DNA from: a virus
Lineage: Duplodnaviria; Caudoviricetes
Length of the DNA stretch: 58,712 nt
Virus record (IMG/VR): IMGVR_UViG_3300049489_000482
Location: 1 to 58,712 of that record
Reading direction: 5' to 3' (one strand)
This document shows, one piece after another, positions 4,909-44,583 of the stretch (within the stretch, counting starts at the first letter, position 1; every line of letters begins with the position of its first letter). Under the pieces are notes generated by a model. It searched no databases. It was not told where the DNA came from and worked only from the letters and a program-made list of their open reading frames with translations. Both the position numbers and the translations under genes were made by a program.

Positions 4909-4991
4909 GGTGGTCGTTGTTTTCGTTGCGCTGTTTGTAGGTGCTGCCGTTCCGTTCGGCAAACCATTTCTCCACCAGCCTGTGGGCGGCT

Positions 4992-7465: not shown

Positions 7466-7474
7466 GGTGTGTCC

Positions 7475-7897: not shown

Positions 7898-7906
7898 TCA
7901 TCGGAC

Positions 7907-8866: not shown

Positions 8867-8959
8867 GTTTGTGCTTCCTGGTTCCGCCAGTGGTCGCCCA
8901 GTGGCTTGATTCGATTTCCCGCTTACGCCGCGCACCCGTGGTTGTCACGGGAAAAAGTG

Positions 8960-26936: not shown

Positions 26937-26984
26937 TCGTTTTTCGTTGCCGCCATACAACCCGCCCACGGGCGGGTATGCAAG

Positions 26985-29502: not shown

Positions 29503-30939
29503 TCAGAGGCGTTCCGGTTTGTGGCCGGCCTGCTCCATGCGGTCGAGCGCCACGGCGACGTATCGCGGGTCCAGTTCAATGGCTCGGGCGATGCGTTGGA
29601 GCTTGTCGGCGGCGACCATCGTGGCGCCGGCTCCGTGGAAGTTGTCGAGGACGATCTGGCCTGGCTTGGTGCTGTTCTCGATGGCGCGTGCGGCGAGTTC
29701 GACGGGCTTCTGCGTCGGGTGCAGATACTCCGCGGCGTTGTCGCGTCCGATTTCCCATGCGTCGGTTGGCTGCGGGTTCCCGATGGTGATGCGGTTGCCA
29801 GTCTTGACGCGGATGTGGCGCCACTTGCCCTTCGGCGGCTTGCTGCGGATGAATAGGTGCGCGTTGGCGCCGTTGGAGATGTGGAGTCCGCTGGCGACGG
29901 CGATGTGGATGTCTCCGCCGCTGGCCTCCGCGATCCGCCAGACGGTGGCCTGCGTCCGATCTCCGTGGAATGAGGCGCTTCCGTCGGCGCGCTCGCAGTA
30001 GAAGCATGGCTCCGTCTGCCAGTGATAGTCGGCGTGGCCGAGAACAAATCCCTCCTTTACCCATGTGATGTATTGCTTCTCGCGCAGCCCGACGGCGTCG
30101 AGGGCGTGTTCGAAGTCGCGCCGAGTGGCTGCCGCGTGCCAGATGTAGGCAGCTCCGTTCCTGGCGAGCCGCTCGACGGCCGGACGCATGGCGGGGATCA
30201 GGAAGTTTGCCAGCGCGTTGTGTGTCAGGTCGTCGTTTGCGATCTTCTTCTTCCCTTTGGCCTGGTAGCTCACGCCGTATGGCGGGTCGGTGTAGTAGAG
30301 CTGGACGGTTTCCGCGTCGAGCAGGCGCTCGTACAGCTTCGGGTCGGTGCTGTCTCCGCAGACGATGCGGTGCGGGCCGGCCCGCCACATGTCCCCGACC
30401 TTCACCGCCCACTTGGCGTGCAGTTCCTCGATGCGCTGTTCCGTGGCGGACGGCTGCGGTGTTTCGTTGGTGTCGCCGGTCGCCAGCAGCCGCTTCAGTT
30501 CCGCCTCGTCGAACCCGACGACGGTCATGTCCACATCCTCCTCGAGTAGCGCCTGCAGTTGCGACCGCAGACGTTCGTCGTCCCAGTCGCCTCCGTGCTT
30601 GTTGGCGGCGATCATGGCGGCGGTTTCCGTGGTCTTGTCCCATGTGACTTCGCGGTAGCTGAACCGTTCCCCTTCAAACTCGATGTGCCCAAGCGCCGTC
30701 GTTCCGGTGCGTGTCGGCTTCGTGAAGCGATGAGTGATCTCCGGTACGCTCTCCTTTGGGTTGAAGTTCTTCACGCGCTGATGCCCGCCCACGGCGTGCC
30801 CGGTCTTGGTGTTGAAGATGATGCCGCTCAGGTCGCCGAACCGGCGCATGGATTCCCGCAGCGCCTGCAGCTTTGCGTCGGTGATGACGCGCGGATTGTC
30901 GGGGTGCGGAGGCGGTAGTGCGGACTTCGTTGTTTTCAT
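29503..30939 (-). CDS. ParB-N domain fused to adenine DNA methyltransferase
   Basis: 'PDNPR...GGHQR' ParB domain; TDPPY, HPTQKP, DNFHGAGAT. Confidence 0.85.
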   Translation of the reverse strand: MKTTKSALPPPHPDNPRVITDAKLQALRESMRRFGDLSGIIFNTKTGHAVGGHQRVKNFNPKESVPEITHRFTKPTRTGTTALGHIEFEGERFSYREVTWDKTTETAAMIAANKHGGDWDDERLRSQLQALLEEDVDMTVVGFDEAELKRLLATGDTNETPQPSATEQRIEELHAKWAVKVGDMWRAGPHRIVCGDSTDPKLYERLLDAETVQLYYTDPPYGVSYQAKGKKKIANDDLTHNALANFLIPAMRPAVERLARNGAAYIWHAAATRRDFEHALDAVGLREKQYITWVKEGFVLGHADYHWQTEPCFYCERADGSASFHGDRTQATVWRIAEASGGDIHIAVASGLHISNGANAHLFIRSKPPKGKWRHIRVKTGNRITIGNPQPTDAWEIGRDNAAEYLHPTQKPVELAARAIENSTKPGQIVLDNFHGAGATMVAADKLQRIARAIELDPRYVAVALDRMEQAGHKPERL

Positions 30940-32630: not shown

Positions 32631-32631
32631 G

Positions 32632-32922
32632 TTATGTGGTCTTGCCCACTGGAATGAAGTAGCTGTGACAGGCTCGGACGGTTACTTCCTCGCCAACGTC
32701 GCGGACGTTGTAGCGCATCATCGCATTTGCCACGCCTTCCGTGATTGTGCCGGTTATCCACTCCCCGTCTATTTTGGTGACGAGCATCGTGAATGTGCCT
32801 TTGCGTTGATTCCTGACCTCATACTCTTTGCCTTCGGACAGTTCTGCATTTCCAGCGACCACATAACCAGTCGCTGATGCAGAACCGGCTTCCCGCGTTT
32901 CCGTTCGGACGTTCGTTTGCAT
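32632..32922 (-). CDS. Hypothetical protein in a relic gene cassette
   Basis: Bounded by GTTATGTGGTC (32631) and its complement GACCACATAAC (32857). Confidence 0.6.
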   Translation of the reverse strand: MQTNVRTETREAGSASATGYVVAGNAELSEGKEYEVRNQRKGTFTMLVTKIDGEWITGTITEGVANAMMRYNVRDVGEEVTVRACHSYFIPVGKTT

Positions 32923-35242: not shown

Positions 35243-36214
35243 TTACGGCTCGCCCTGCCGTGGTGCAAGAGGGAACTCCCGCACCCGCAAATCCTGCGGC
35301 CACTCGGCGGGGTCGCCGCCCTTCTTGTCGCGCAAGACGACTCTGGCCCCGTCAATGCCTGCAACCGATGGCCAGCATTGTGAGTCAGGAAACGTGTCCG
35401 CGCTGTTAACATTGTGGTCGATCACATGTGCCCCCAACTGCTTTACAAACGCGGACACGCCAGCTTCTTTGCACTGGCGCACGCCATCCCGAATCCACTC
35501 CACGTTGCAGGGGCGGGCATTCGGGCCGCTCTCGCCGCCGAAGATGATTTGATGGATTCGATTCTCGCGCCGTCCGTCGCTCCATCCATCCCTCCCGAGC
35601 ACATACCTGAAATTTACCGGCCCCAGCATCGGCTCGCAGGAAATGAAACGCACCGCCGCCGGAATCTTGAGCAGTTCCGGGATGCGCCTGTCCGCCATCT
35701 CCTGATTCTCGCACGTCGTGCCAATCCAGACGTTGTGCGGTGGGCCGTGGAAACCATCGTCGCCGGTCTGCGCTGCATTGCTCCACTTCATCACCAGCAC
35801 CTTCGCGTCCGACAACGGCTCCATAACGTCCCACGCAGCGGCAATCCGTCGCTGCCAATTCTCCGGGCGCTTGGTCAGGAGTTGCCACGTCAAATTCGGC
35901 GTCTGGTGAATCACCGACAGCAAATCCGCCAACCACTCCACCGGCACCTCGTCATCCAGCCAGTCGGAGAGGCTGGCGCAAAACACGCGCTGCGGAGGAT
36001 GCTCAGGGTCGTGTTTCCGATTCCACTTCAACGGCTTCTTCCAGTTCGCTGCGCTGGTGCGGATTCGCGGCACGCCCTTCCGGTATTCTCCAATCCCGAA
36101 CCGATGGGCATGTGCAGCCGCGTAGCAGTTGGTGCAGCCGGGGGATACAGGCGTGCAAATCCGCCACGGATTGAACGTGTAATCGGTCCATTGGATTTTC
36201 GTGTTCTCGCTCAC
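35243..36214 (-). CDS. Gp37/Gp68 (DUF5131) family protein
   Basis: 'TKIQWTDYTFNPW..C..VSPGCTNCYA', 'LLTKRP', 'GGESG'. Confidence 0.9.
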   Translation of the reverse strand: MSENTKIQWTDYTFNPWRICTPVSPGCTNCYAAAHAHRFGIGEYRKGVPRIRTSAANWKKPLKWNRKHDPEHPPQRVFCASLSDWLDDEVPVEWLADLLSVIHQTPNLTWQLLTKRPENWQRRIAAAWDVMEPLSDAKVLVMKWSNAAQTGDDGFHGPPHNVWIGTTCENQEMADRRIPELLKIPAAVRFISCEPMLGPVNFRYVLGRDGWSDGRRENRIHQIIFGGESGPNARPCNVEWIRDGVRQCKEAGVSAFVKQLGAHVIDHNVNSADTFPDSQCWPSVAGIDGARVVLRDKKGGDPAEWPQDLRVREFPLAPRQGEP

Positions 36215-36427
36215 TCAGTATCCTCCGTCGCGTTCAACGTCCCCCGCGATTTCGCCCTTCTCTTCCTCGCACCGGTCGCGATACGTGCGGCCTTCGGCGT
36301 CGGTGTCGTCCGGGCCGCTGATGTCTCGGTCGGTCACTCCTGCGGGTAAGTTCGGATCAGCATTCATTCAGTTTTCATTCGTTGGCGTGCAGCCTGGCTC
36401 GGCTGCACGCCCCTGTTGTAATGCCGG

Positions 36428-36922
36428 CTACGGATGCGCGCCAGCACTTTCCGGTGCCCGGTCGATGGCTGTCTCTCCGGTGACCACGGTGAGCGCCACG
36501 GCTCCGCCTCCGGTGCGGACCGGTATGGTTCCATCCACGGTGTTCAACTTCAGTTGCGCCGGGTCATCGGTGCTTGTTTCCGCGGCGTCCTTGTGCGCCG
36601 GCCTCGGGATGGCCAGCTTGACCTTGACCACCGCCGGCTTGTCGGTGCAGTCCAACACGACGGGCATGTTGAACTTCAGCTTGCCGTCGAAGTGATCCGC
36701 CTGGATTTGCCGCAGCGTCCTCCAGTTCTTCACCAGCAGTTGCTTGGCCTCAATCAGGACGCTGGCGACAATCATCGAGTCCTGTTCGCTCAACTCGCAG
36801 TTTTGGCGCACGCTCGCCGCGACGTTGTCACGGTTCGCGAGGTCGATGTCCACGACGTTGGTGACCGTCTTTGTCCGGACGGTCTTCGGTGTTTTGGCTT
36901 TCGCCGGTTTCTTCTTACTCAT
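36428..36922 (-). CDS. Hypothetical protein
   Basis: ORF in gene order. Confidence 0.5.
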   Translation of the reverse strand: MSKKKPAKAKTPKTVRTKTVTNVVDIDLANRDNVAASVRQNCELSEQDSMIVASVLIEAKQLLVKNWRTLRQIQADHFDGKLKFNMPVVLDCTDKPAVVKVKLAIPRPAHKDAAETSTDDPAQLKLNTVDGTIPVRTGGGAVALTVVTGETAIDRAPESAGAHP

Positions 36923-36969
36923 TGTTTTGTCCTTCGGTTTTCGTGCCAGCACCATGCTGGTTTGAAATC

Positions 36970-37383
36970 TTATTTGTTCGTCCAACAAATCAGCACGCCC
37001 TCAAACGGCAAGCCGTGTGTCGTCTCGAACCACTGTAGCATTTCGAGACGGTTAGCAAAGCCATCGGCGCGAGCGAATGCTTCCTCGTCGTGAAGTGCGA
37101 GGCCGCAGAGGGTGCATCCAAGCGCGCTGATTGTGATCGGCAGCGTTTTGGTGATGACCGCTTCCCGGAGCACTCGCTGTTTCGAGCGATATGGTTTGCC
37201 CGTCCATGAGCGCAGGCTGATACGGTCGCCCGGTTCCGGCATCCGTTTCGGCGTCGGGCGGACTGTTTGCAGCTTCTCGCCGCGCTCGACGAGTTCCGCA
37301 AACTGCGGCTTGAACATCCGCACAAAAGAGGATGAACCAGCCGCTTCAGCGATCGGATGGATTGCGTCTCTAGTGTTTTTCAT
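36970..37383 (-). CDS. ASCH/PUA-like protein in an ectopic gene cassette
   Basis: 'FKPQFAELVERGEKLQTVR...FARADGF'; start codon lies inside an attC. Confidence 0.7.
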   Translation of the reverse strand: MKNTRDAIHPIAEAAGSSSFVRMFKPQFAELVERGEKLQTVRPTPKRMPEPGDRISLRSWTGKPYRSKQRVLREAVITKTLPITISALGCTLCGLALHDEEAFARADGFANRLEMLQWFETTHGLPFEGVLICWTNK

Positions 37384-37422
37384 AGCATTGGCCCAGCCGT
37401 CGCTGAGTTTGGGTCGTTCGAT
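37331..37422 (+). mobile_element. Solitary attC site
   Basis: GATGAAC..CTTCAGCGA...TCGCTGAG.TTGGGTC.GTTCGAT; right arm almost identical to attC5 and attC6. Confidence 0.7.
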
Positions 37423-37424
37423 CT

Positions 37425-38414
37425 TCATTGGAGGTATGCCTTCCGCTTCTCCGCCCGGTGCGACGCGCCCGCCATCCGCAGTATCGCGTATCCACATTCC
37501 GCGAGCCTGTCCTGCATCCGCTCGCCGATGATGGCAAACAGTTCTTCCTTCGAGGCTAGGTTTCCGATCAGCACCGTCTTCATTTCCTGGTTGTAGCGGT
37601 GGCTCAGGATGTCGTGGATCACCGGGAACTCGTCCCGTCCACCCGTGCTCAGTCCCATCTCGTCCAGCACAAGGCACGGCGTCCGCTTGCAAACGGCGAC
37701 GATGTCCTCCGCACGCTCGTCCCGGTAGGTCCGGCGCAGCGCGTTCAGGAGTTCCTGCTGTGTCAGCATCCGACCGCGCTTGCTCGCCCGCAGGATGCTA
37801 ACTCCGAGATGCGACTTGCCGGTGCCCTTGTCTGGCCCGATCAGGCAGATGAACCCGGAACGGCACGCGATGAAGCGCCGGACGGTGGTGAGCGTGTTCT
37901 GCTCGCCGGCATCGCGCGGCACGAAGTTGTCAATCGTTGCGTGCGTCATGTTCCTCGGGACGCCGCTGTCGATCAACTTCTGCGCCGCCGCGTTCGCAGC
38001 GGCGTTGGCGTGGCACTTCCCGCACGGCAGGTAGAACGCGCATGGCTCGTTGCCCTGCGCGATCCACCGGGACATCTCCGGGATGTCGAACGCCAGCGCG
38101 GTGTCGGGATGCTTGTCGCACCGCTTCACCTCGCGTGTGGCAGCCCACGCCGCCGCCCGCTTTTGATTCGCGATGTTCGCCCTCATCGCCCGCTCAAGTC
38201 CGGCGCAAGCGGCGGTGAGCACGGTGTCGATGGAGTCCGTTGCCGGCCCGAGCCGTAGCCTCCACCCGTCCTGCTTCGGCGCGCATTCCTGACATATCCA
38301 CTCGTGCCCATCGACGTTGATCGTCTCTCCGATCTGCGCCTGCTCAGGTCCGGTCGCGAACGCCACGACGGACGTTCCAGAGGTGATCGTCTTGGTTGAG
38401 GTGAATTGCTTCAT
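37425..38414 (-). CDS. DnaC/IstB-like AAA+ helicase loader
   Basis: GPDKGTGKSHL, LVLDEMG, 'HRYN..KTVLIGN', 'GERMQDRL'. Confidence 0.8.
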   Translation of the reverse strand: MKQFTSTKTITSGTSVVAFATGPEQAQIGETINVDGHEWICQECAPKQDGWRLRLGPATDSIDTVLTAACAGLERAMRANIANQKRAAAWAATREVKRCDKHPDTALAFDIPEMSRWIAQGNEPCAFYLPCGKCHANAAANAAAQKLIDSGVPRNMTHATIDNFVPRDAGEQNTLTTVRRFIACRSGFICLIGPDKGTGKSHLGVSILRASKRGRMLTQQELLNALRRTYRDERAEDIVAVCKRTPCLVLDEMGLSTGGRDEFPVIHDILSHRYNQEMKTVLIGNLASKEELFAIIGERMQDRLAECGYAILRMAGASHRAEKRKAYLQ

Positions 38415-39166
38415 GTTGATGTCGGGTCCGTCCACGGTGTTCCGTCAAAGTTCTCGACGCCGGCCACGAACGGAACGGGCGCTTTCGGCTGTGCCTTCGG
38501 CGGTGTGTGCCCGCCCTTCGGTTCAAAGATGCCCTGGTATCCGGACGCCGTGGAGTGACGCAGTGCGGCCAGTGCTCTGGCGGTGCCAATTCCGCAGAGA
38601 AAACCGAGTTGCTTGCCGGCTGCCGTCGGCGTGATCGGCTGGCGCTTTTCCCGTCGGTGCTGCTGCCAGTCCTTCCACGCATCCTGCATCTCGGGAGTGT
38701 CCAGTTCAACGGGGAGCGGATAGTCCGGCGCCAACGGCGCCTTCTTCTTTCCGATCAGTTCTTCTGTTCCATTGTTCTTCTTTGTCGCGGGTTCCCCGTC
38801 GTCCGGGTTTCCCACGGACGGGTTTCCCACAGCACGGGAACCCGTATTGTGGCTCTCCGGCTCCTGCGGTGTGTCGTAGAATTCCCAAACGCACCGGGCG
38901 AACCTGTTCTCCGCGTCACGCTCCTTGTGCAGCGTCACGTACCGCTTCGCCATCAGTTCCTTGAGGGCGGAGTTCATGGCATCCCGGCCCTCTGTGCCCT
39001 GCTCTTCGAGCCACGTCTTGGTCACCTCCCACGATCCGGTGTTGCTCAGAACCATCGCGAGCAAGCCCCGCGCCTTGAAGCTCAGTGTCTTGTCGCGAAG
39101 CATGGCATTCGGAAGCACGGTGAAGTCCTTCGTGCAGTTGGATTTAAAGATGCGTTGAGGTTTCAT
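38411..39166 (-). CDS. Replication initiator (HTH, lambda O-like arrangement)
   Basis: 'FTVLPNAMLRDKTLSFKARGLL'; internal repeats; adjacent to a DnaC-like gene. Confidence 0.75.
   Translation of the reverse strand: MKPQRIFKSNCTKDFTVLPNAMLRDKTLSFKARGLLAMVLSNTGSWEVTKTWLEEQGTEGRDAMNSALKELMAKRYVTLHKERDAENRFARCVWEFYDTPQEPESHNTGSRAVGNPSVGNPDDGEPATKKNNGTEELIGKKKAPLAPDYPLPVELDTPEMQDAWKDWQQHRREKRQPITPTAAGKQLGFLCGIGTARALAALRHSTASGYQGIFEPKGGHTPPKAQPKAPVPFVAGVENFDGTPWTDPTST
38740..38850. other. Candidate replication origin (iterons plus adjacent pyrimidine/T-rich tract)
   Basis: CGGG(T/A)-type repeats at 38788, 38804, 38819 and 38835 inside the initiator gene. Confidence 0.55.
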
Positions 39167-39303
39167 GCGGGGAGGAAAAAACGACCGGACGGCGAGTTGA
39201 AAAACAGCGGTGAAGTTCCGCCCGCGCGTTTCCGCGCCACGCCGATCCGGTCGTCAGAGTTTGTTTCCTTCATACGTTCGGGTTTTTCAAGCCCGCAGTG
39301 GTG

Positions 39304-40416
39304 TCACCTTGCTCCGAGCAGTTCCTGTGAGTCAACGATTTCGTAATCGAGCGCCCGGTATACCTCCACGCGGCGCCTGCTGTGCTTCGCCATCAGCGGG
39401 TGCTGGTGATCGGTGAAGTCGTAGATTGTCCCGTGCTCTTTGCCGGCAAACGCGCGCAGCACGCGGCCCGTCCTCTGCTCCGTCTTGGTGCTGCTTCGCC
39501 CACCGCTGACGAGCACCAGCACGTTCGCCCTGGGAAGGTCCAGCCCCTCGTCGGCGAGTGACGTTGCCACGATGCACCACACGGTGCCCGCCTGGAACGC
39601 CTGGAGCGCCTCACGCCGCGCCTTCGCGCCCATCTTGCTGTGGCACAGCCTAGCGCCCGGCAGGCGCGCACACAGGGCATCCCCGTGCTCGATCTGGTTC
39701 ACGAGAACCAGCACGGCGTCGCCCCGATGCGCGAGCGCAGCGGCCACGGCCGCCTCGTTCCTGGCGCGGTTCTGGACGATGCCCATTTCGATGCACGCCT
39801 GCCACGCCACCTGTCCCCACAGTTGGCCGGGGTCGCCCCTCCAGAACCGTTGCCGCCAGCGCATGTCGGTGGCGATCTTGGCGTCAATCGGCTGTTGCAG
39901 GTCCGGGTCTGTCGCGTCGAGCATGACGACGCGGGCGTGCGCGAGACGCCTGGCCACCGCCTGCCGGTCGATGGTGAATCTGTCGGTGCCAAAGATGACA
40001 GCCATCGCCTCGTTCCGCTCCGGGTCTTCGCTGTACGGCGTCGCGGTGAATCCCCAGCGTGCGCCCGTGCAGGACTCGATCTGCGTGCGCCACGCGGGCG
40101 CTGGCGCGTGATGGCACTCATCCACGATCAGCAGCGCGCAGTCGCTCCAGTCGGTTGCGGCCGCCGCGCAGGCAACGCGCCGCTCGATGCGGCACGGGAA
40201 GTTGTCGAGTGCCTTATGCGCCTGCTGGCACTGCTCCTGTGTGTTCGCCATCCAACCGACGCGCACGGGATGCTCGCGACCTCGGGCGGTGACCACGGAC
40301 TGGATTGCCGCCGCTGCGATGACCGTCTTGCCGCTTCCGGCCGGCGCGATGCAGATGGCCCGACGCCGGGTGCGTATCCACTCGACTGCGCTCTTCTGGT
40401 AGAGTTCGAGGGTCAT
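39304..40416 (-). CDS. SF2 (DExH) helicase
   Basis: APAGSGKT, DECHH, TAT, EGLDLP, QRTGR. Confidence 0.9.
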   Translation of the reverse strand: MTLELYQKSAVEWIRTRRRAICIAPAGSGKTVIAAAAIQSVVTARGREHPVRVGWMANTQEQCQQAHKALDNFPCRIERRVACAAAATDWSDCALLIVDECHHAPAPAWRTQIESCTGARWGFTATPYSEDPERNEAMAVIFGTDRFTIDRQAVARRLAHARVVMLDATDPDLQQPIDAKIATDMRWRQRFWRGDPGQLWGQVAWQACIEMGIVQNRARNEAAVAAALAHRGDAVLVLVNQIEHGDALCARLPGARLCHSKMGAKARREALQAFQAGTVWCIVATSLADEGLDLPRANVLVLVSGGRSSTKTEQRTGRVLRAFAGKEHGTIYDFTDHQHPLMAKHSRRRVEVYRALDYEIVDSQELLGAR

Positions 40417-41363
40417 GCGTCGAGCGGGGATTTAACACTCAACGCATCGGCATGGCAGTAGCGCTCAGTGGTTGTGATCTGAGCGTGGCCCATCGCTTTG
40501 GCAAGTGCCTTGATGTTTGTCCCGCGATTCAGGCAGTGCGTGGCGTAACTGTGCCGCAGTTCGTGCGGAACAGCCATGATGCCAGTCTCTCGGCGAGCGC
40601 GTTTTACGGCGCGCTGAATCGTCGCAGTCAGGAGATGCCATCGAACCATCCGCCTCGGATCATGTGGGTCTGGTGACGGGTATTTCAGTGGAGTGAACCA
40701 TGCCCACTGCCATAAGCATTCAAACTCGGGATACTTGCGTGCCAGTTGATGCGGCAACTGGATTGGGATTTGGTCGCGCACGTCCCGCAACCACGTTTGC
40801 CGCGCCGCTTCCATCTGCTGCTCAATCCGACCAACCAGAGCGCACGGCATTTTGACGACACGGTCATGTCCACACTTCGGCTCGCGAATGGTGATCTGCT
40901 GCTGTCCGATGTCGATGTCCTTAATCCGAAGCGCAACTGCTTCACCCACGCGAAGCCCGCAGCCGTAAAGTAGATGCGTCACTAGGTTTGCAGGGTATCC
41001 TCCAGTGTCGCTCACCGCTGCCAGAAGCGTCCTTACTTCTTCCACCGGAAGCGCACGGCGCATGTGCTCTGGGCGTTGCGCCCGTAACGCGTCAATGTCC
41101 TTAAGTTTCACGCCGAGGCAGTCTCTGTAAAAGAACAAGATAGCATTGAACGCCTGGTTTTGTGTCGCTGCGGAAACGTCGCGAGCAGCAAGTTCTGTCA
41201 GGAACCGCTCCATCTTCTGCTCGCTGGTGAGCACGGACGGCATCTGGAATATGGCAGTGATGTAGCGCTTGATCCATTGTTTGTAATTGTCCTCTGTCGC
41301 CAGTGATTTGTGCTGTCTCCGCATCACATCCACCGCTCTCTGGATTGCCTGCTCCTTATTCAT
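40413..41363 (-). CDS. intI: Integron integrase (tyrosine recombinase)
   Basis: SAATQNQAFNAILFFY, GLR, HELRHSYATH, GH..TT..Y, plus the IntI-specific insert LPHQLARKYP..WQWAWF..PDP..RWH. Confidence 0.9.
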   Translation of the reverse strand: MNKEQAIQRAVDVMRRQHKSLATEDNYKQWIKRYITAIFQMPSVLTSEQKMERFLTELAARDVSAATQNQAFNAILFFYRDCLGVKLKDIDALRAQRPEHMRRALPVEEVRTLLAAVSDTGGYPANLVTHLLYGCGLRVGEAVALRIKDIDIGQQQITIREPKCGHDRVVKMPCALVGRIEQQMEAARQTWLRDVRDQIPIQLPHQLARKYPEFECLWQWAWFTPLKYPSPDPHDPRRMVRWHLLTATIQRAVKRARRETGIMAVPHELRHSYATHCLNRGTNIKALAKAMGHAQITTTERYCHADALSVKSPLDA

Positions 41364-41402
41364 AAGCGAACACTTCCTTTGGCTTAAACACCGTTCCACA
41401 TC
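41364..41402 (+). mobile_element. attI-like site (crossover G|TTCCAC at 41393)
   Basis: Abuts the intI start; GTTCCACATC is the complement of the first cassette end GATGTGGAAC (41853). Confidence 0.65.
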
Positions 41403-41403
41403 T

Positions 41404-41850
41404 TCAATAGTCGCCCTCGTCGTTGTAGTCGTCCCAGTCCAGTTTGGCGTCTTTCCACTGCGCCGCCCCGCCGAGGTCATCGAGCAGCTTGCGCGCTTTT
41501 CGGGCGCGGTCTATCGCGGCTTGGCTCTTGATTGCTTCTTCCTCCAGTGACTTCTGGTAGCGGTCTATGACTTCCGCTGCCGAGCCTTTGCAGTGGCCGT
41601 ATCGCCGTTCCCAATCCACCACGGGCATCGTTTTCATTTCCTCGACTTCGTTGGCGAGGCGTTGGAGTTCGCCAGCGCTTTTGATGCAGGCGTTTTTTAG
41701 CGGCGCGAGTCCGGCGAGGATTTTCTCCATGCCGAGGATTGCGGTTGCGGCGCTTTCGCCGTCCTTCACTTCGACCGTCAGGTCGTAGCGGACGTGCTCG
41801 TAGTTGCCGAGGTTGTAGAGTCTGCCGATTGTGATTTTGGTTACGTTCAT
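41404..41850 (-). CDS. Cassette 1 hypothetical protein
   Basis: 148 aa; fills cassette 1. Confidence 0.75.
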   Translation of the reverse strand: MNVTKITIGRLYNLGNYEHVRYDLTVEVKDGESAATAILGMEKILAGLAPLKNACIKSAGELQRLANEVEEMKTMPVVDWERRYGHCKGSAAEVIDRYQKSLEEEAIKSQAAIDRARKARKLLDDLGGAAQWKDAKLDWDDYNDEGDY

Positions 41851-41855
41851 TCGAT

Positions 41856-41944
41856 GTGGAACAATTCAGTGCAGGCAACGGCGGGTTGCGCTGCGGGTTT
41901 ATTTCGAGTCGTCAGGTCCGCCGTGCCTGACTTCACCGTTGGAG
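41856..41944 (+). mobile_element. attC1
   Basis: GTGGAAC..GTGCAGGCA/TGCCTGAC..GTTGGAG. Confidence 0.85.
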
Positions 41945-42246
41945 GACTCCATGCCGGCGTTCGCGGTGTGCTGTTTCAGAGCCACCGGCACGGAGTCCAG
42001 ATTCAGTTTCTTTTGTGAGGCCGCACCGACCGCCCAGTCGCGGACTTGCAGCCAGATTTCTTGCTTCGATTTTTCCGTTTCGATTTTGGCTTCGATCCAT
42101 GCCCAGTCGCGCAGCTCGGCGAGCATCCACGCGAGTTCTTCCAGTCTCTTTGGGTTCGCCCGTCCTCCAACCATTCCCTGATGCGAATCGCCACCGCGCC
42201 GCGCGCGTGGCAATTCGGGAGTCGGTTGAGCGGTGGCGATTCGCAT
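41899..42246 (-). CDS. Cassette 2 hypothetical protein
   Basis: Starts in attC2, ends in attC1. Confidence 0.55.
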   Translation of the reverse strand: MRIATAQPTPELPRARRGGDSHQGMVGGRANPKRLEELAWMLAELRDWAWIEAKIETEKSKQEIWLQVRDWAVGAASQKKLNLDSVPVALKQHTANAGMESSNGEVRHGGPDDSK

Positions 42247-42262
42247 AGGTCAGTCGTTGTCC
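42165..42262 (+). mobile_element. attC2
   Basis: CTCCAAC..ATGCGAATCGCCACCGC/GCGGTGGCGATTCGCAT..GTTGTCC. Confidence 0.85.
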
Positions 42263-42543
42263 GTCTTTGCCGCCCACCGATCCACCGCGCGATGGTTGCT
42301 CCAGCATGGATGCAGTTCGACCGCGCGACGCATCGCGTCGGGGCTGTTTGCCCATCCCATCTGCATCGGCTTTCCCTCTTCGTCGTCGCACCATATTTCG
42401 TAGCGTTGTCCACGGTCGCCAACCGCCGGCAAAGACGGACAACCAGCCGGTGCAGCGAATGAGCCGCGAGGCTTTTTCCTGCATTTAGACCCGTCATTCC
42501 AACACTCCGCGAACTCCGGGGCGCAATCGTCACAGTGGCTCAT
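42250..42543 (-). CDS. Cassette 3 hypothetical protein
   Basis: Starts in attC3. Confidence 0.55.
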   Translation of the reverse strand: MSHCDDCAPEFAECWNDGSKCRKKPRGSFAAPAGCPSLPAVGDRGQRYEIWCDDEEGKPMQMGWANSPDAMRRAVELHPCWSNHRAVDRWAAKTDND

Positions 42544-42564
42544 CGCTGACCTCCATCGTTAGGC
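42437..42564 (+). mobile_element. attC3
   Basis: GGACAAC..GTGCAGCGAATGAGCC/GGCTCATCGCTGAC..GTTAGGC. Confidence 0.85.
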
Positions 42565-42822
42565 CGCATCGTATTCGGCCAAGATTGTTTCTGTGATCCT
42601 GACTGGCACATACTCGACTCCTGGGTCGGGCTTTGGCTTCCGAGAGATGGCCTCCATGACCTCGGCCCGGTCAAAGTATTGCCCCACGTCGCAGACCCAC
42701 TTTCTGTCCGCGAATTTCCGCAGCATCCAGTATTGGTCGGTTTTGGTTTCCGGCGGCCTAACCACGGCGCTGCTGCCAACAGCCGCCCCGCTTGGCACGC
42801 TCGGAGTCACAGGTTCTTTCAT
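42559..42822 (-). CDS. Cassette 4 hypothetical protein
   Basis: RBS and ATG lie in the attC4 loop; stop lies in the R' box of attC3. Confidence 0.65.
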   Translation of the reverse strand: MKEPVTPSVPSGAAVGSSAVVRPPETKTDQYWMLRKFADRKWVCDVGQYFDRAEVMEAISRKPKPDPGVEYVPVRITETILAEYDAA

Positions 42823-42882
42823 GGTTTCCTTTCCGCTCTACCCATGCCGTCGGGCGGCTGTGGCAGAGCTTGGTCGTTAGGA
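42756..42882 (+). mobile_element. attC4
   Basis: GCCTAAC..CTGCCAACAGCCGCCC/GGGCGGCTGTGGCAG..GTTAGGA. Confidence 0.85.
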
Positions 42883-43092
42883 GACATTTTCTTCGGCCAC
42901 GTAAATGTTGTGTGCATTGTCTTTCCGGGTCACACACACTTGGTCATGCCATCCTTTGTGCGGATAGTTGGCGCACACTATCCCTTCGCCTCTGTATTCG
43001 GCGGTGTCCACCATTACTCGGTCGCCGATCTTGCGTCCCGGCCTGATTGCTTTTGCGAGCGCGTATAGCGCGTTTGATATTAGTGTTCTCAT
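42877..43092 (-). CDS. Cassette 5 small protein (SH3/KOW-like)
   Basis: 'KIGDRVMV...GEGIV'. Confidence 0.6.
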   Translation of the reverse strand: MRTLISNALYALAKAIRPGRKIGDRVMVDTAEYRGEGIVCANYPHKGWHDQVCVTRKDNAHNIYVAEENVS

Positions 43093-43101
43093 TCGTTTGT
43101 T

Positions 43102-43125
43102 GTCGCTGAGCTTGGGTCGTTAGGC
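43102..43125 (+). mobile_element. attC5, right arm only
   Basis: GTCGCTGAGCTTGGGTCGTTAGGC with no left arm. Confidence 0.7.
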
Positions 43126-43338
43126 CACATACGTCGCCCATCGTTTATGCTGACCGCATCCTTCACCGAGCAGCCGCTCCACCGATTCGCGGCAGTCGGC
43201 GGCGTTGTGGATGAGCAGCGGGCCGTTGTCGTAGATTTCGCCGGTGCTGGGATGTTGCCACTCAGCGCGTGGTTCGCACCAGCACTGCGCGGAGTGCTCA
43301 TGTTCTCTTTCATCGTTTAGAGGTATGACGTTGACCAT
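43120..43338 (-). CDS. Cassette 6 His/Cys-rich small protein
   Basis: 'VIPLND..EH...CWCEP...IHNAADCRE'. Confidence 0.65.
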   Translation of the reverse strand: MVNVIPLNDEREHEHSAQCWCEPRAEWQHPSTGEIYDNGPLLIHNAADCRESVERLLGEGCGQHKRWATYVA

Positions 43339-43341
43339 GTG

Positions 43342-43434
43342 GCCTAACCATGCGCTCCAGCGAACCCGGCGGGGGCGTTGCGGTTGCAATCGTTGCCTCC
43401 CGTGCGCCGGGTCGCTGAGCTTGGGTCGTTCGCC
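43342..43434 (+). mobile_element. attC6
   Basis: GCCTAAC..CTCCAGCGAACCCGGCG/CGCCGGGTCGCTGAG..GTTCGCC. Confidence 0.9.
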
Positions 43435-43778
43435 AGATGCAGCAGCGGGAGCGTCTGCCCAGCCAGACCATCGGTCGAGTCGCCGAGGTGTTGGCACATC
43501 CCGTCCGTCAGCCAGATGTGGCTCACATTCCCGTCGGCGTGTGTTGTCTTCACGCTCGGCTTGAGCGTCGGCTTGAGCGTCGAGCCGTTCCACGTCCACG
43601 CATTTGCTGCGTCGCGGCTTCCGTGGGTGATGACTGGCAGCAGAATTGGGAACTCGTAGCCGTGCGGCTGGAAGCGCAGATAGTCGCGACCGTTGCGATG
43701 CTCCAAACACGAAACTGGCGAACAAGGCGCTGCACCCGCAACTGCCGCTTCGCCTGTCCGTTCAGAGTCAGATTTCAT
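43344..43778 (-). CDS. Cassette 7 DUF6527-like protein
   Basis: 'WTWNGSTLKPTLKPSV..HIWLTDG..LGDST..LAGQT'; tail reads through attC6. Confidence 0.7.
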   Translation of the reverse strand: MKSDSERTGEAAVAGAAPCSPVSCLEHRNGRDYLRFQPHGYEFPILLPVITHGSRDAANAWTWNGSTLKPTLKPSVKTTHADGNVSHIWLTDGMCQHLGDSTDGLAGQTLPLLHLANDPSSATRRTGGNDCNRNAPAGFAGAHG

Positions 43779-43844
43779 TTCGATTCGTTTCTTTGCGCTC
43801 GACCCGTCCCGCCAGCGGCAGTGGGGTGAGCTTGGCTGTTCGCC
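43717..43844 (+). mobile_element. attC7
   Basis: GGCGAAC..CTGCACCC..ACTGCCGCT/AGCGGCAGT.GGGTGAG..GTTCGCC. Confidence 0.8.
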
Positions 43845-44404
43845 AAACGAATGACGCGCCCCGGTAGTCCCGAGCGTTCGAGGGCCAGCGTGTTCGTTTC
43901 GTCGTAGGAGATGAGCGCGGACGGTCCGCCAGCGTTTGCCCCTGCCCGCGTCCCGTCCACATGGTAGAAGTAGAGCCGCCCCCACAAGAACAGGATCGCG
44001 TGCGCCTTCTTCCAGACGTGCTCCACCCAATCCGCTGTTTCCGTCCGTGCAAAGATCAGCGCGGTTGCGTTGCCGTGCTCCGCGCACCGTGCCAGCCAGC
44101 GCCCCGTCTCGCGGCCATACGGAGGATTGCACCAGACGCGACCACTCCACGGCAGCCGCAGCCCATTGTCGCGCACCGTGTAGTGCTTCGATGCAGTCGG
44201 CCACGGCCGATTGATCGGGCTGCACGGGTCGAGGTCGAAAGCCCCGAGAGCGGTCAGGATCTCGGGCGGCGTCAGCCACTCGTCTTTGCCCATCCGGTGC
44301 GAGTGATGCCCCCCGATGCCGCGACCAGAATTGGCGAACCAGGCGGTGGACTCAACAGCCATGAGCGGCGGAGTTTCGAGGGTAGCGGAGTCGTTTGCGC
44401 TCAT
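43775..44404 (-). CDS. Cassette 8 phage Dam-like N6-adenine methyltransferase
   Basis: DEWLTP, FDLDPC, WCNPPYG. Confidence 0.85.
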   Translation of the reverse strand: MSANDSATLETPPLMAVESTAWFANSGRGIGGHHSHRMGKDEWLTPPEILTALGAFDLDPCSPINRPWPTASKHYTVRDNGLRLPWSGRVWCNPPYGRETGRWLARCAEHGNATALIFARTETADWVEHVWKKAHAILFLWGRLYFYHVDGTRAGANAGGPSALISYDETNTLALERSGLPGRVIRLANSQAHPTAAGGTGRAQRNESK

Positions 44405-44410
44405 GGTGGT
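44333..44410 (+). mobile_element. attC8 with degenerate right arm
   Basis: TTGGCGAAC complements the cassette start at 43838; inner stem CCATGAGCG/CGCTCATGG. Confidence 0.55.
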
Positions 44411-44418
44411 GCCATCGC

Positions 44419-44583
44419 TTATGCGTTCGAGCGCCGGGCGACGCGCTTGGGTTTGCGTTTCGTTTTTGCCCACCGAGCGGCCACTGCCGCCCGTGCCTGT
44501 TCGGAACTTCGCGCCTTGGCCGCGCCCGTCCCGGCTTTGCCGCCGAGTCTGCCGAGCGCGACCGCCGCTGGATTTTTAGTCAT
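44419..44583 (-). CDS. Small basic 'AVALGRLGG..ARW' protein
   Basis: MTKNPAAVALGRLGGKA...AARW. Confidence 0.7.
   Translation of the reverse strand: MTKNPAAVALGRLGGKAGTGAAKARSSEQARAAVAARWAKTKRKPKRVARRSNA

What the first reader, a model, noticed from the sequence alone, without database searches (positions are those of the whole stretch)
40413..44410. A phage carrying a complete integron: IntI, attI-like site and eight cassettes
Seen: a tyrosine recombinase with all catalytic residues and the IntI-specific insert, adjacent to a run of attC-like hairpins. Each cassette's first bases are the exact reverse complement of the left end of its own attC, as expected if it once existed as an excised circle. 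The pairs are 41393/41853 (10 bp), 41938/42162 (10), 42256/42428 (16), 42558/42753 (10), 43119/43337 (12), 43428/43715 (9) and 43838/44331 (9). Known: integrons are described from chromosomes, plasmids and transposons; I do not know of them as a built-in phage module. Inference: the phage uses IntI to collect and shuffle its own accessory genes. The cargo looks phage-like (Dam-like MTase, DUF6527-like and small hypotheticals), and intI is translationally coupled (ATGA) to the replication helicase, so it does not look like a stray host fragment.
Basis: partly seen in the sequence, partly recalled or inferred. Interest (0 to 1): 0.95.

Follow-up and report, generated by a model that had tools for sequence, protein, structure and literature searches.

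The report
Phage integron with backward-facing gene cassettes
A tailed-phage contig carries a complete integron (integrase, insertion site and about eight gene cassettes) whose genes all point the opposite way from classical integron cassettes, and related phages show cassettes being gained or lost at exactly the expected spot.

Summary
Window 40413-44431 is a complete integron inside a phage contig that also encodes a large terminase and a Mu-type portal. The integrase is IntI-like: integron-integrase is its best NCBIfam model (254 bits, cut-off 265), and it aligns with Vibrio IntI (PDB 2A3V) straight through the IntI-specific insert. A covariance model built from 30 attC sites of other integrons finds seven attC sites in the 58.7-kb contig at E of 0.014 or better. 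All seven are on the + strand: six form the array and one stands alone at 37331-37422. Seven cassettes begin with a 9-17-nt perfect complement of their own attC left end.

Phage-associated integrons are already in print (Qi et al. 2023). All eight cassette ORFs lie on the attC bottom strand, co-directional with intI and every phage gene.

The IntI falls in a 13-tip clade that holds six IMG/VR viral records, two of them complete genomes with terminal repeats. In this clade, 19 of 19 cassettes with a positive coding score are reversed.

Two near-identical relatives differ by a single 197-nt cassette placed exactly at the attI junction. Activity in this particular phage is inferred, not shown.

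The parts
40413..41363 (-). intI, integron-type tyrosine recombinase (316 aa counted from the ATG at 41363)
   Evidence: NCBIfam TIGR02249 'integron integrase': 254.3 bits, E 1.8e-75, model positions 3-313 of 315, curated cut-off 265. XerC and XerD models score about 105 bits. Pfam PF00589 and PF13495 match. The best PDB match is Vibrio IntI (2A3V), E 3.3e-39, in one stretch (residues 12-305) that runs through the IntI-specific insert. Xer-type chains align in two stretches that skip residues 188-241. Relatives align from residue 1 of this start. The stop overlaps the helicase ATG as ATGA.
41364..41395 (+). attI region; junction with the first cassette at G|TT 41393
   Evidence: On the intI strand the sequence reads ..GTGGAAC|GGTGTTTAAGCC. 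In 19 of 21 relatives printed, the same place reads AAC followed, after 2-3 nt, by TGATT- or TAAT-type letters (mostly nnTGATTAnnC); L025 and L059 do not show it. In relatives the homology breaks and the cassette insertions lie exactly at this AAC| point.
41393..41944 (+). cassette 1: ORF 41404-41850 (-), 148 aa, no family; attC 41856-41944
   Evidence: attC: scanner and model R1, 35.0 bits, E 4e-6. Start and R'' are complementary over 10 nt. The best coding frame is on the - strand. The nearest ESM Atlas clusters are viral hypothetical proteins, score 0.89, a lead only.
41938..42262 (+). cassette 2: ORF 41899-42246 (-); attC 42165-42262
   Evidence: R1 25.1 bits, E 0.0012; scanner; 10-nt complement; - strand coding frame.
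42256..42564 (+). cassette 3: ORF 42250-42543 (-), 97 aa, Cys-rich, starts inside the loop of its own attC; attC 42437-42564
   Evidence: R1 39.5 bits, E 3e-7; 17-nt complement; - strand coding frame, by a small margin.
42558..42882 (+). cassette 4: ORF 42559-42822 (-), 87 aa; attC 42756-42882
   Evidence: R1 28.6 bits, E 1.6e-4; 10-nt complement; - strand coding frame. The stop codon TAA is the reverse of the cassette's own first bases TTA.
42876..43125 (+). cassette 5: ORF 42877-43092 (-), 71 aa; only the L'-R' half of an attC remains (43102-43125)
   Evidence: The 20 nt at 43102-43121 are identical to 43411-43430 in the attC of cassette 6 (family D4). No R'' partner and no model hit. - strand coding frame.
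43119..43434 (+). cassette 6: ORF 43120-43335 (-), PHROG family of unknown function; attC 43342-43434
   Evidence: phrog_2864, E 3e-11, on the - strand frame. R1 35.8 bits, E 2.6e-6. 12-nt complement. In the probable source run, summed contig depth over this attC is 1044 against about 37 elsewhere, with foreign flanks starting at 43342 and 43430.
43428..43844 (+). cassette 7: DUF6527 ORF within 43344-43778 (-); attC 43717-43844
   Evidence: PF20137 DUF6527, E 6e-8, 32.8 bits, above the cut-off of 23.6. R1 20.8 bits, E 0.014. 9-nt complement. Homologous cassette bodies (83% and 72% nt identity) lie in the arrays of L052 and L110, starting at the GTT.
43838..44431 (+). cassette 8: Dam-like DNA N6-adenine methyltransferase ORF 43775-44473 (-); degenerate attC 44333-44431
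   Evidence: PF05869 Dam, E 3e-12. phrog_111 DNA methyltransferase, E 1.4e-42. 9-nt complement. R1 only 15.3 bits, E 0.31.
36976..37422 (+). solitary cassette outside the array: ORF 36970-37428 (-), weak ASCH-like match; attC 37331-37422
   Evidence: R1 24.3 bits, E 0.0018 on the whole window and 3e-5 on 1 kb. Its L'-spacer-R' is of the same type as in the array. The first 8 bases match the complement of its R'' at 7 of 8 positions (by eye). The ORF's ATG overlaps the stop of the dnaC-like gene as ATGA. ASCH PF04266 E 0.015, below the cut-off.
39304..40416 (-). superfamily-2 helicase, the next gene downstream of intI in the same operon
   Evidence: PF00271, PF04851 and PF16203. Its start overlaps the intI stop.

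Best explanation
Window 40413-44431 is a complete integron built into the early/replication operon of a tailed phage. The host is probably a member of the Verrucomicrobiota. The platform itself is classical. intI lies on one strand and attI sits at its 5' end. The attC sites have their top strand (AAC arm first, extrahelical bases on that arm) on the opposite strand and point away from intI. What is not classical is the cargo: every cassette ORF lies on the attC bottom strand. The array is therefore read in the same direction as intI and all other phage genes, presumably by read-through from an upstream phage promoter and not from a Pc promoter.

Inferred mechanism: IntI, made from that same transcript, folds attC bottom strands (here the sense strand) and recombines them at the conserved AAC. 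It excises cassettes by attC x attC recombination and inserts circles at attI, next to intI.

Shown: the sequence anatomy, the circle footprint of each cassette, and a clean one-cassette difference at attI in close relatives of the clade.

Inferred: that this phage's IntI is active, how the array is transcribed, and that the cargo (a Dam-type methyltransferase, DUF6527 and small unknown proteins) serves the phage.
For: Phage context:
- Large terminase, phrog_979, E 4e-161.
- Mu-type portal, PF06074, E 9e-56.
- All 60 predicted genes lie on the - strand.
- The record is an IMG/VR virus record.

IntI:
- TIGR02249 scores 254 bits against about 105 bits for XerC/D.
- One continuous alignment with 2A3V runs through the insert, and Trp219 of 2A3V is matched by a Trp.

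attC sites:
- Scanner: 6 of 6 hits on the + strand inside the array, 0 elsewhere, shuffles 0.1.
- The same scanner finds the class 1 aac(6')-Ib-cr attC on its coding strand, which serves as a control.
- Model R1, built only from other loci, gives 7 hits at E of 0.014 or better, all on the + strand.
- Strand assignment follows Nivina et al. 2016 (PMC5027507, passages read). [quoted passage not shown]

Circle footprint:
- 7 of 7 cassettes show a 9-17-nt perfect match between their start and their own R''. The match to the adjacent R' is 3-8 nt.

Reversed ORFs:
- Family hits occur only on the - strand: Dam, DUF6527 and phrog_2864. 0 of 7 + strand ORFs tested had a hit.
- The codon log-odds score puts the best frame on the - strand in 8 of 8 cassettes.

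attI:
- A conserved motif follows the AAC in relatives and in the window.

Relatives:
- 11 of 11 confirmed IMG/VR loci encode a relative of this IntI.
- G002 (75,285 bp) and G004 (45,898 bp) have terminal repeats of 123 and 100 bp and are rated 100% complete. They carry 4 and 6 attC sites next to intI. G004 has a large terminase and a portal.
- In 46 loci of the clade, 82 of 83 model hits lie on the strand opposite intI.
- The IntI tree has a 13-tip clade (support 0.945) holding the window and the viral records.
- In that clade, 19 of 19 cassettes with a positive best score are reversed; counting all scored cassettes the figure is 26 of 27.

Activity in the clade:
- L018 and L067 are identical over 1,510 nt and 99.4% identical over 504 nt. 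They differ by one 197-nt cassette exactly between ..CCTAAC and the attI motif, with AAC at both ends.
- The attC of that cassette is found by R1 in L067 only.
Against: - The TIGR02249 score (254.3) is under NCBI's curated cut-off (265).
- IntegronFinder's own attC model and its intI_Cterm profile could not be run. My scanner and model R1 are substitutes of my own making, and the 30 training sites for R1 were chosen by that scanner.
- There is no direct evidence of recombination in this contig. The single run that holds it is probably its own source and is kept only as contigs. The joints listed there have sides shorter than 30 letters.
- No single contig of the second assembly bridges the attC at 43342-43434. 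The link between cassettes 1-6 and cassettes 7-8 plus the right-hand 15 kb rests on the original assembly and on similar depth, 37.1 against 34.8.
- The contig is only about 69% complete.
- intI and the array have lower GC (0.595-0.60 against 0.61-0.66) and a weaker codon score than the backbone genes. This fits a module acquired from elsewhere.
- No promoter was found on either strand, so the transcription model is an inference.
- Reversed arrays also occur outside the viral clade (L052, L119, L011), so the trait is not proven to be specific to phages.
Confidence: 0.85

Rival explanations
1. IntI is first of all the phage's lysogeny integrase. The phage would insert itself as a giant cassette into the chromosomal integron of its Verrucomicrobiota host, by phage attI or attC recombining with a host attC. 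On this view the small array is a by-product of that lifestyle. This does not exclude cassette shuffling.
For: IntI is the only tyrosine recombinase, and no serine recombinase is found, in the window or in 5 of 5 related viral records, among them two complete genomes. The phage's attC type (arm ..GCTGAGCTTGGGTCGTT..) recurs in arrays next to intI on contigs of Verrucomicrobiota genome bins (L099, L104). It is about 28 times more abundant than the phage in the source metagenome. Qi et al. 2023 describe a Vibrio prophage whose excision points lie in two attC sites.
Against: I saw no prophage form flanked by attC sites. No repressor or lysogeny module was identified in the ORFs I scanned. The window is incomplete, so another integrase may lie in the missing 31%. 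The L018/L067 difference is a 197-nt cassette, not a phage genome.
Confidence: 0.15
2. The integron is a recently captured piece of a host chromosomal integron, as in the Vibrio anguillarum phages, carried passively and not adapted to the phage.
For: GC content and codon score are lower in intI and the array than in backbone genes. The attC type is shared with Verrucomicrobiota bins. The closest genomic IntI proteins (49-54% identity) are all from Verrucomicrobiota bins.
Against: IntI forms a 13-tip clade (support 0.945) with five other viral records whose flanking genes are unrelated to the window's. intI is fused into the operon by an ATGA overlap. In the window 8 of 8 cassettes are turned to match phage transcription. 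The two nearest clades on the tree, largely contigs from Verrucomicrobiota genome bins and metagenomes, hold mainly classically oriented arrays: L022 5 of 5, L105 3 of 3, L036 3 of 4, L030 3 of 3.
Confidence: 0.08
3. The contig is a chimeric assembly that joins a phage to an unrelated integron through a repeated attC.
For: The second assembly breaks at 43401-43409, inside an attC shared by about 200 other contigs of the run.
Against: One contig of 17,099 nt with 0 differences spans the dnaC-like gene, the helicase, intI and cassettes 1-5 (window 36000-43409 of the stretch laid). The next contig (41,494 nt) starts in the same attC and continues through cassettes 7-8 into phage-like genes at nearly the same depth. 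The other contigs sharing the attC have depths of 3-14. So intI and most of the array are linked to phage genes whichever way that joint is resolved.
Confidence: 0.04
4. It is not an integron at all: a Xer-like recombinase that happens to sit beside intergenic hairpins such as terminators or REP-like repeats.
For: The TIGR02249 score lies just under the curated cut-off.
Against: The hairpins have the exact attC geometry: a 5-6-nt unpaired spacer, 3 bp, one extra base, 6 bp, one extra base. All are on one strand. They score with a model built from other integrons. They carry the cassette-circle footprint. The Xer models score 150 bits lower. Rfam has no hit.
Confidence: 0.02

Closest known systems
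Classical integrons (class 1 mobile integrons; sedentary chromosomal integrons such as that of Vibrio cholerae)
   Same: IntI with the family-specific insert. attI at the 5' end of intI. attC sites with R''/L''/L'/R' boxes, an unpaired central spacer, extrahelical bases and a variable loop. The attC top strand points away from intI. Each cassette begins with the complement of its own R''. These points rest, with a class 1 attC as control.
   Different: All cassette ORFs lie on the bottom strand and run towards intI, not away from it. No Pc-like promoter was found. intI is the gene after the array in a long phage operon and overlaps the next gene. The host replicon is a tailed phage.
Phage-associated integrons and attC clusters of Qi et al. 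2023 (PMC9892861): Vibrio anguillarum phages p16 and p42, an Escherichia coli P1 isolate, Shewanella prophage M16-3, and 17 attC clusters without integrase
   Same: Integron parts sit on phage genomes, and DNA methyltransferases are among the cargo.
   Different: By that paper's account, its complete integrons are subsets of the host's chromosomal integron, class 1 integrons on a phage-plasmid, or sit in a cryptic prophage. Its virulent phages had attC clusters without IntI. Here IntI belongs to a clade spread over unrelated viral contigs, including two complete genomes with terminal repeats, and the cassettes are reversed. The window's IntI is 29-36% identical to the integrases of those published phages. 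The paper's supplementary tables could not be opened, so I cannot say whether any relative is listed there.
Inverted integron-integrase group (Treponema and others; Cury et al. 2016, PMC4889954, passages read)
   Same: intI and the cassette genes end up co-directional.
   Different: [quoted passage not shown] In the window the attC sites keep the classical orientation relative to intI (0 - strand hits) and the ORFs inside the cassettes are turned instead.
Virus Rctr41k, GenBank KX853513 (gene annotated xerD, 'integrase-like protein')
   Same: A tailed-virus contig with an IntI-like gene (37% identity to the window's) and 6 attC hits by my scanner, 4 of them by model R1 at E of 0.01 or better.
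   Different: Its attC sites lie downstream of the integrase on the same strand, and the annotated genes lie on the attC top strand. That is the inverted-integrase solution, not the reversed-cassette solution.
Integrons on Verrucomicrobiota genome bins (L095-L105, L109) and related bog metagenome contigs (L030, L033, L036)
   Same: These are the closest IntI proteins outside viral records (49-54% identity). The attC arm sequences are shared.
   Different: Their arrays are mostly classically oriented (L105 3 of 3, L109 2 of 2, L036 3 of 4, L030 3 of 3). One subclade has uniform 99-nt attC repeats, like a sedentary integron.

Membership tests
Integron | Integrase scores above the curated threshold of the integron-integrase model (NCBIfam TIGR02249) | tested here: not met
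   254.3 bits against a cut-off of 265. Even so it is the best family, full length (3-313 of 315), E 1.8e-75, and about 150 bits above XerC/XerD.
Integron | IntI-specific additional domain between the catalytic patches | tested here: met
   One continuous phmmer alignment with VchIntIA (2A3V, residues 11-305) covers query residues 188-241. Xer-type chains (4A8E, 5HXY) align in two pieces that skip this part. Pfam PF00589 also matches in two pieces around it.
Integron | Match to IntegronFinder's intI_Cterm profile and attC_4 covariance model | not testable with these tools
   Neither model is among the libraries offered. Rfam 15 gave no hit in the window.
Integron | Catalytic tyrosine-recombinase residues (R, H-x-x-R, H/W, Y) | tested here: met
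   GLRVGE, HELRHS and GHAQITTTERYCH align with the corresponding motifs of 2A3V. Which residues are catalytic is recalled, not computed.
Integron | attC sites: imperfect hairpins with R and L boxes, an unpaired spacer and extrahelical bases on the R''/L'' arm | tested here: met
   Folds. Scanner: 6 hits on the + strand, 0 on the - strand, shuffles 0.1. Model R1 from 30 foreign attC sites: 7 hits at E of 0.014 or better. Control attC of a class 1 cassette.
Integron | At least two attC sites clustered on one strand within 4 kb of intI (the rule given in Cury et al. 2016) | tested here: met
   Six sites lie at 41856-43844 on the + strand. The nearest is 493 bp from the intI start.
Integron | attI next to the 5' end of intI, joined to the first cassette at G|TT | tested here: met
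   A conserved motif follows the AAC in relatives and in the window. The cassette insertion in L067 and the end of homology between L003 and L018 lie exactly there. Binding by IntI was not tested.
Integron | Cassettes bear the footprint of a circular intermediate (first bases complementary to their own R'') | tested here: met
   7 of 7 cassettes with 9-17-nt perfect runs. The adjacent R' gives only 3-8 nt.
Integron | Promoterless cassette ORFs on the attC top strand, expressed from Pc | tested here: not met
   8 of 8 cassettes code on the bottom strand. 0 sigma-70-like sites on either strand in 36.5-49.5 kb. The scan covers only one promoter type.
Integron | IntI-catalysed attC x attI and attC x attC recombination | not testable with these tools
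   Only indirect evidence exists: a one-cassette polymorphism at attI between L018 and L067. Nothing is available for the window itself.
Inverted integron-integrase group | [quoted passage not shown] | tested here: not met
   intI is on the - strand and all attC top strands are on the + strand.
XerC/XerD chromosome-dimer recombinases | Best match to Xer models and no IntI insert | tested here: not met
   XerC 104.9 and XerD 104.0 bits against cut-offs of about 330. The insert is present.

The most novel reading that the evidence does not exclude
A lineage of integrons has adapted to life on tailed phages. The recombination platform is kept as in bacteria, but the cassette pool is built 'backwards', with each ORF antisense to its attC top strand and the attC upstream of its gene in the mRNA. 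The whole array is then transcribed with the phage operon towards intI, and the recombinogenic bottom strand is the non-template strand. This would give otherwise unrelated phages of Verrucomicrobiota a shared site-specific slot for swapping small accessory genes such as methyltransferases and HTH proteins. The cassette pool would be silent, or read differently, in the classically oriented chromosomal integrons of their hosts. IntI might in addition dock the phage into those host arrays.
Probability: 0.45. Interest if true: 0.88.

Novelty: new variant of a known kind. Interest (0 to 1): 0.78.

Why it matters
Integrons are known mainly as bacterial devices for capturing genes, above all antibiotic-resistance genes. 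The one paper on phages found in my searches describes host-derived fragments or attC clusters without an integrase. This contig and its relatives suggest that some environmental phages own an integron of their own lineage. It is wired into an essential operon, and its cassettes are oriented the opposite way from every textbook example.

This bears on three open questions:
- How cassettes are made and why they are almost always co-oriented with attC.
- Whether transcription exposes the recombinogenic strand.
- How phages exchange small accessory or anti-defence genes without homology.

It also gives a concrete test bed: an IntI, an attI and six well-formed attC sites that can go straight into the standard recombination assay.

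Tried and rejected
1. Coding strand by GC3 or by the longest open frame. Both were uninformative in these short GC-rich cassettes, because both strands are open. I replaced them with a codon log-odds score and family hits.

2. Joints in the laid contigs: 42465>42538, 42790>43815, 42881>43341, 43126>43341, 43128>43341 and 43130>43337. All have sides of 21-29 letters at a likeness threshold of 90. By the tool's own warning they may come from other organisms' attC sites, so I do not use them as evidence of excision.

3. I considered that the two long contigs of the second assembly close a circle of 58.7 kb (41,494 - 15,312 = 26,182, next to 26,311). I rejected this. CheckV rates the record 69% complete, which fits the contig simply running about 26 kb beyond the window. 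Neither reading was tested.

4. The window's large terminase as a probe in G001-G005 found 0 of 5 matches. So the relatives are not the same phage type; the tool notes that an empty answer shows little.

5. Flanking-gene comparison between the window and L001-L011, and then all 173 loci held at the time. Apart from IntI, only a methyltransferase-like ORF, the portal (L005) and the DUF6527 cassette have relatives. No near relative of this phage exists in the collections (best IntI match 66% on a 1.3-kb contig), so cassette order could not be compared for the window itself.

6. ESM Atlas for the cassette 1 protein gave only viral hypothetical clusters at 0.89, a lead only. ASCH for the solitary cassette scored E 0.015, under the cut-off.

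7. The pair 32631/32857 (11 nt) looks like a cassette footprint, but no attC model hit lies there and both arms are inside coding sequence. I treat it as chance or a decayed site.

8. The promoter scan found nothing on either strand. It covers sigma-70-type sites only.

9. Literature searches covered phage integrons, integrons in viral contigs or IMG/VR, Verrucomicrobia integrons and reversed cassettes. Only Qi et al. 2023 deals with integrons in phage genomes. I found no paper describing a phage IntI clade or arrays of reversed cassettes. Subscription journals are not covered, and supplements are closed.

Full report
WHAT THE CONTIG IS. The window is the whole of an IMG/VR virus record: 58,712 bp, linear, CheckV completeness 69%. 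A codon-score gene call places all 60 genes on the - strand. They include a large terminase (phrog_979, E 4e-161), a Mu-type portal (PF06074, E 9e-56), a tail-fibre-like protein and two ParB-type or plain DNA methyltransferases. There is also a replication block with a DnaC-like loader, a superfamily-2 helicase and a UvrD-type helicase. No tRNA and no Rfam family was found.

THE OBSERVATION. Of the 12 GTT../..AAC inverted pairs of at least 9 nt in the contig, seven tile one after another in 41393-44339.

The integrase, read from the ATG at 41363, hits the integron-integrase model TIGR02249 over its full length. The score is 254.3 bits, 11 bits under the curated cut-off and about 150 bits above the XerC/XerD models. 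Against solved structures the best match is Vibrio cholerae IntI (2A3V, E 3e-39). The alignment is one uninterrupted stretch that includes residues 188-241, the insert that sets IntI apart. Xer-type chains align in two stretches that leave this part out.

The intI stop and the helicase start overlap as ATGA.

ARE THE HAIRPINS attC SITES, AND ON WHICH STRAND? Folding shows a common plan on the + strand:
- a 7-nt box ending in AAC;
- 5-6 unpaired bases;
- a 3-bp stem, one unpaired base, a 6-bp stem, usually one more unpaired base, and a longer stem;
- a variable loop;
- the mirror arm without the extra bases;
- 5-7 unpaired bases and then GTT.

A class 1 cassette served as control. The aac(6')-Ib-cr attC in plasmid locus L012 has the same plan on its coding strand.

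I wrote a scanner for this geometry. In the window it finds six sites, all on the + strand and all inside the array, and none on the - strand. Shuffled sequence gives 0.1. It also finds the control site.

Because the scanner is mine, I then built a covariance model (R1) from 30 attC sites of other loci. These are mostly bacterial integrons, plus the class 1 control and one viral contig (L007). With filters off, R1 finds the same six sites at E 3e-7 to 0.014. It also finds a seventh at 37331-37422 (E 0.002) and a weak eighth at 44333-44431 (E 0.31). Nothing on the - strand scores below E = 1.

According to Nivina et al. 2016 (PMC5027507, passages read), the extrahelical bases lie near L''. [quoted passage not shown] So the + strand of the window is the attC top strand. 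intI lies on the bottom strand at the left end, which is the classical platform arrangement.

THE CASSETTE FOOTPRINT. In an integron the crossover lies in the conserved triplet. A cassette therefore carries the right half of its original R' at its own beginning. Accordingly, seven cassettes start with a 9-17-nt perfect complement of their own R''. The R' that now abuts the same attC matches it over only 3-8 nt. Terminators or generic repeats would not give this pattern.

Cassette 5 has lost the left half of its attC; the remaining 20 nt are identical to those of cassette 6. The outermost attC is degenerate and lies inside the methyltransferase reading frame.

THE UNUSUAL PART: THE GENES FACE BACKWARDS. 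Family matches occur only on the - strand:
- Dam-type methyltransferase: PF05869, E 3e-12, and phrog_111, E 1e-42.
- DUF6527: PF20137, E 6e-8.
- phrog_2864: E 3e-11.

None of seven + strand ORFs tested had a match. A codon log-odds score trained on 17 long genes of the phage puts the best frame, free of stops, on the - strand in 8 of 8 cassettes.

So each ORF is antisense to its attC top strand. It starts in or just after its own attC and ends at or shortly beyond the cassette's first bases. In cassettes 4, 5 and 6 the stop codon TAA is the reverse of the cassette's own TTA.

No sigma-70-like promoter was found on either strand between 36.5 and 49.5 kb. The one strong terminator-like hairpin on the - strand lies at 49319-49292. 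This fits, but does not prove, one long transcript that runs through the UvrD-type helicase, the array, intI and the replication genes.

attI. Directly after the AAC of the cassette nearest intI, 19 of the 21 relatives printed show a shared motif on the intI strand, mostly nnTGATTAnnC; L025 and L059 do not. The window reads GGTGTTTAAGCC at the same place. Many relatives also have a palindrome of the type ATACGA..TCGTAT between this motif and intI. The window lacks it, and its intI begins only 41 nt after the stop of cassette 1's ORF.

RELATIVES. IntI relatives occur in 11 IMG/VR loci, in at least 527 metagenome stretches, of which the best 80 were kept, and in 336 genome stretches, 80 kept. 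The closest genomic ones (49-54% identity) are all from Verrucomicrobiota bins (Limisphaerales and Pedosphaerales types), which points to the host phylum.

The flanks of the viral relatives share no genes with the window, so the module sits in different phages. G002 (75,285 bp) and G004 (45,898 bp) have terminal repeats of 123 and 100 bp and are rated 100% complete. G004 has a large terminase and a portal, and G002 a virion protein. They carry 4 and 6 attC sites next to intI and none elsewhere at E of 0.01 or better. IntI is their only tyrosine recombinase and they have no serine recombinase.

In 46 loci of the wider clade, 82 of 83 model hits lie on the strand opposite intI. A FastTree phylogeny of 142 IntI sequences places the window in a 13-tip clade (support 0.945) with L001/L015, L002-L005 and seven other contigs.

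With a pooled codon model, this clade's cassettes that reach a positive score are reversed in 19 of 19 cases (26 of 27 if all are counted). The clade's arrays scored were the window, L176, L180, L001, L003, L005 and L023, plus L016, whose intI is 99.9% identical in nucleotides to that of clade member L017. In the two nearest clades on the tree, arrays are mainly classical: L022 5 of 5, L105 3 of 3, L109 2 of 2, L036 3 of 4 and L030 3 of 3.

The method is noisy where both strands score negative. Reversed arrays also appear in deeper branches (L052, L119, L011). I therefore state the link with phages as a pattern, not a rule.

GenBank virus Rctr41k shows the other way of making everything co-directional: its attC sites and genes follow the integrase on the same strand.

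SIGNS OF MOBILITY. Three observations bear on this.
- The DUF6527 cassette has homologues of 83% and 72% nucleotide identity in the arrays of L052 and of Thalassobacterium maritimum (L110). The similarity begins at the GTT that opens the cassette, and the neighbouring cassettes are unrelated.
- Within the window's clade, L018 and L067 are identical over 1,510 nt and 99.4% identical over the next 504 nt. L067 has one extra 197-nt unit inserted exactly between ..CCTAAC and the attI motif, bounded by AAC on both sides. The unit contains an attC that R1 detects (E 3e-4) and that L018 lacks. By my reading of the printed sequence, it encodes a small HTH-like peptide on the intI strand.
- L018 and the viral contig L003 (intI 91% identical in nucleotides) share both flanks but differ in cassette content. 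Homology stops at the same AAC junction.

This is what attI x attC insertion or excision predicts.

THE SOURCE METAGENOME. Only one public run holds the region, probably its source, and it is kept as contigs. A 17,099-nt contig covers 36000-43409 without a difference. A 41,494-nt contig starts at 43401. Their depths are 37.1 and 34.8.

Between them, over the attC at 43342-43434, summed depth reaches 1044 and about 200 short contigs of 90-99% likeness pile up. Unrelated sequence begins at 43342 on one side and after 43430 on the other. Thus this attC type belongs to a large cassette pool in that community. Its arm sequences recur in arrays on contigs of Verrucomicrobiota genome bins. The same fact means that the join at this attC is not independently verified.

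WHAT IS KNOWN. Qi et al. 2023 screened 10,705 phage genomes. They found three complete integrons and one integrase without cassettes, all in temperate phages and traced to host integrons or class 1 elements. They also found 17 attC clusters without integrase. Five of six tested phage attC sites recombined with IntI1. That paper does not mention Rctr41k, Verrucomicrobia or metagenomic viruses in its main text.

Cury et al. 2016 mention integrons in Verrucomicrobia and the inverted-integrase group. Nivina et al. 2016 state that cassettes inserted facing the promoter have not been observed in mobile or chromosomal integrons. That statement concerns inverted attC sites, which is not the case here, but it shows how unusual genes facing intI are. 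My searches found no description of a phage IntI clade or of fully reversed arrays.

VERDICT. The finding is real and more interesting in its details than in its headline. 'A phage with an integron' is a new member of a published kind. A phage-resident IntI clade whose cassettes are all built in the reverse sense, embedded in an essential operon, with a natural one-cassette polymorphism at attI, is a new variant worth experimental follow-up.

Confidence that this is a true integron on a phage genome is 0.85. That it is active in this phage I put at about 0.6. That the reversed orientation is an adaptation to phage transcription I put at about 0.45.

Noticed in passing
window 36976-37422: A solitary cassette lies about 3 kb beyond the far end of intI, outside the array. 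It has a well-scoring attC (37331-37422, + strand) of the same arm type as the array. Its weakly ASCH-like ORF on the - strand starts inside the attC and overlaps the stop of the dnaC-like gene as ATGA.
   Followed up: partly
window 32631-32867: An 11-nt GTT../..AAC inverted pair brackets a 96-aa ORF. One arm overlaps its stop codon, and the letters after the AAC resemble the start of an attC arm. No attC model hit lies there, so this may be a decayed cassette or chance.
   Followed up: partly
L067 1511-1707 versus L018 1601-1603: Two otherwise identical metagenome contigs differ by one 197-nt cassette inserted exactly at attI. By my reading of the printed sequence it encodes a small HTH-like (sigma-70 region 4-like) peptide.
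   Followed up: yes
L013 (GenBank KX853513, Virus Rctr41k) 4680-10101: The gene annotated xerD is IntI-like (37% identity). It is followed on the same strand by six attC-like sites with methyltransferase-like genes between them. This looks like an unannotated integron of the inverted-integrase type in a deposited virus genome.
   Followed up: partly
L030, L033, L035, L036, L098, L101, L103 upstream of intI: Arrays of near-uniform 99-nt attC sites (scores 32.6-33.1 bits), like the repeats of a sedentary chromosomal integron. They occur on bog and soil metagenome contigs and on contigs of Verrucomicrobiota genome bins.
   Followed up: no
upstream of intI in L007, L016, L022, L095, L103, L104 and others: A palindrome of the type ATACGA-N-TCGTAT lies between attI and the intI start. 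It may be a regulatory (perhaps SOS-type) or IntI-binding box. It is absent from the window, where intI follows cassette 1 directly.
   Followed up: no
window 43342-43434 in run X1: This attC type is about 28 times deeper than the phage in the probable source metagenome and occurs on about 200 other contigs. A large community pool of cassettes shares the phage's attC type.
   Followed up: partly
window 49319-49292 (- strand): The strongest terminator-like hairpin of the region (12 pairs followed by a T-run). It is a possible boundary of the long operon that contains the array and intI.
   Followed up: no
window end (58712), record 8: The contig of the second assembly that starts at 43401 is 41,494 nt long, about 26 kb more than the window offers. 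This fits CheckV's 69% completeness: the phage genome probably continues beyond the window.
   Followed up: no
window 25764-26969 and 29503-30939: Two further DNA methyltransferase genes lie in the backbone, one fused to a ParB-like domain. With the cassette-borne Dam-like enzyme the contig encodes three.
   Followed up: no
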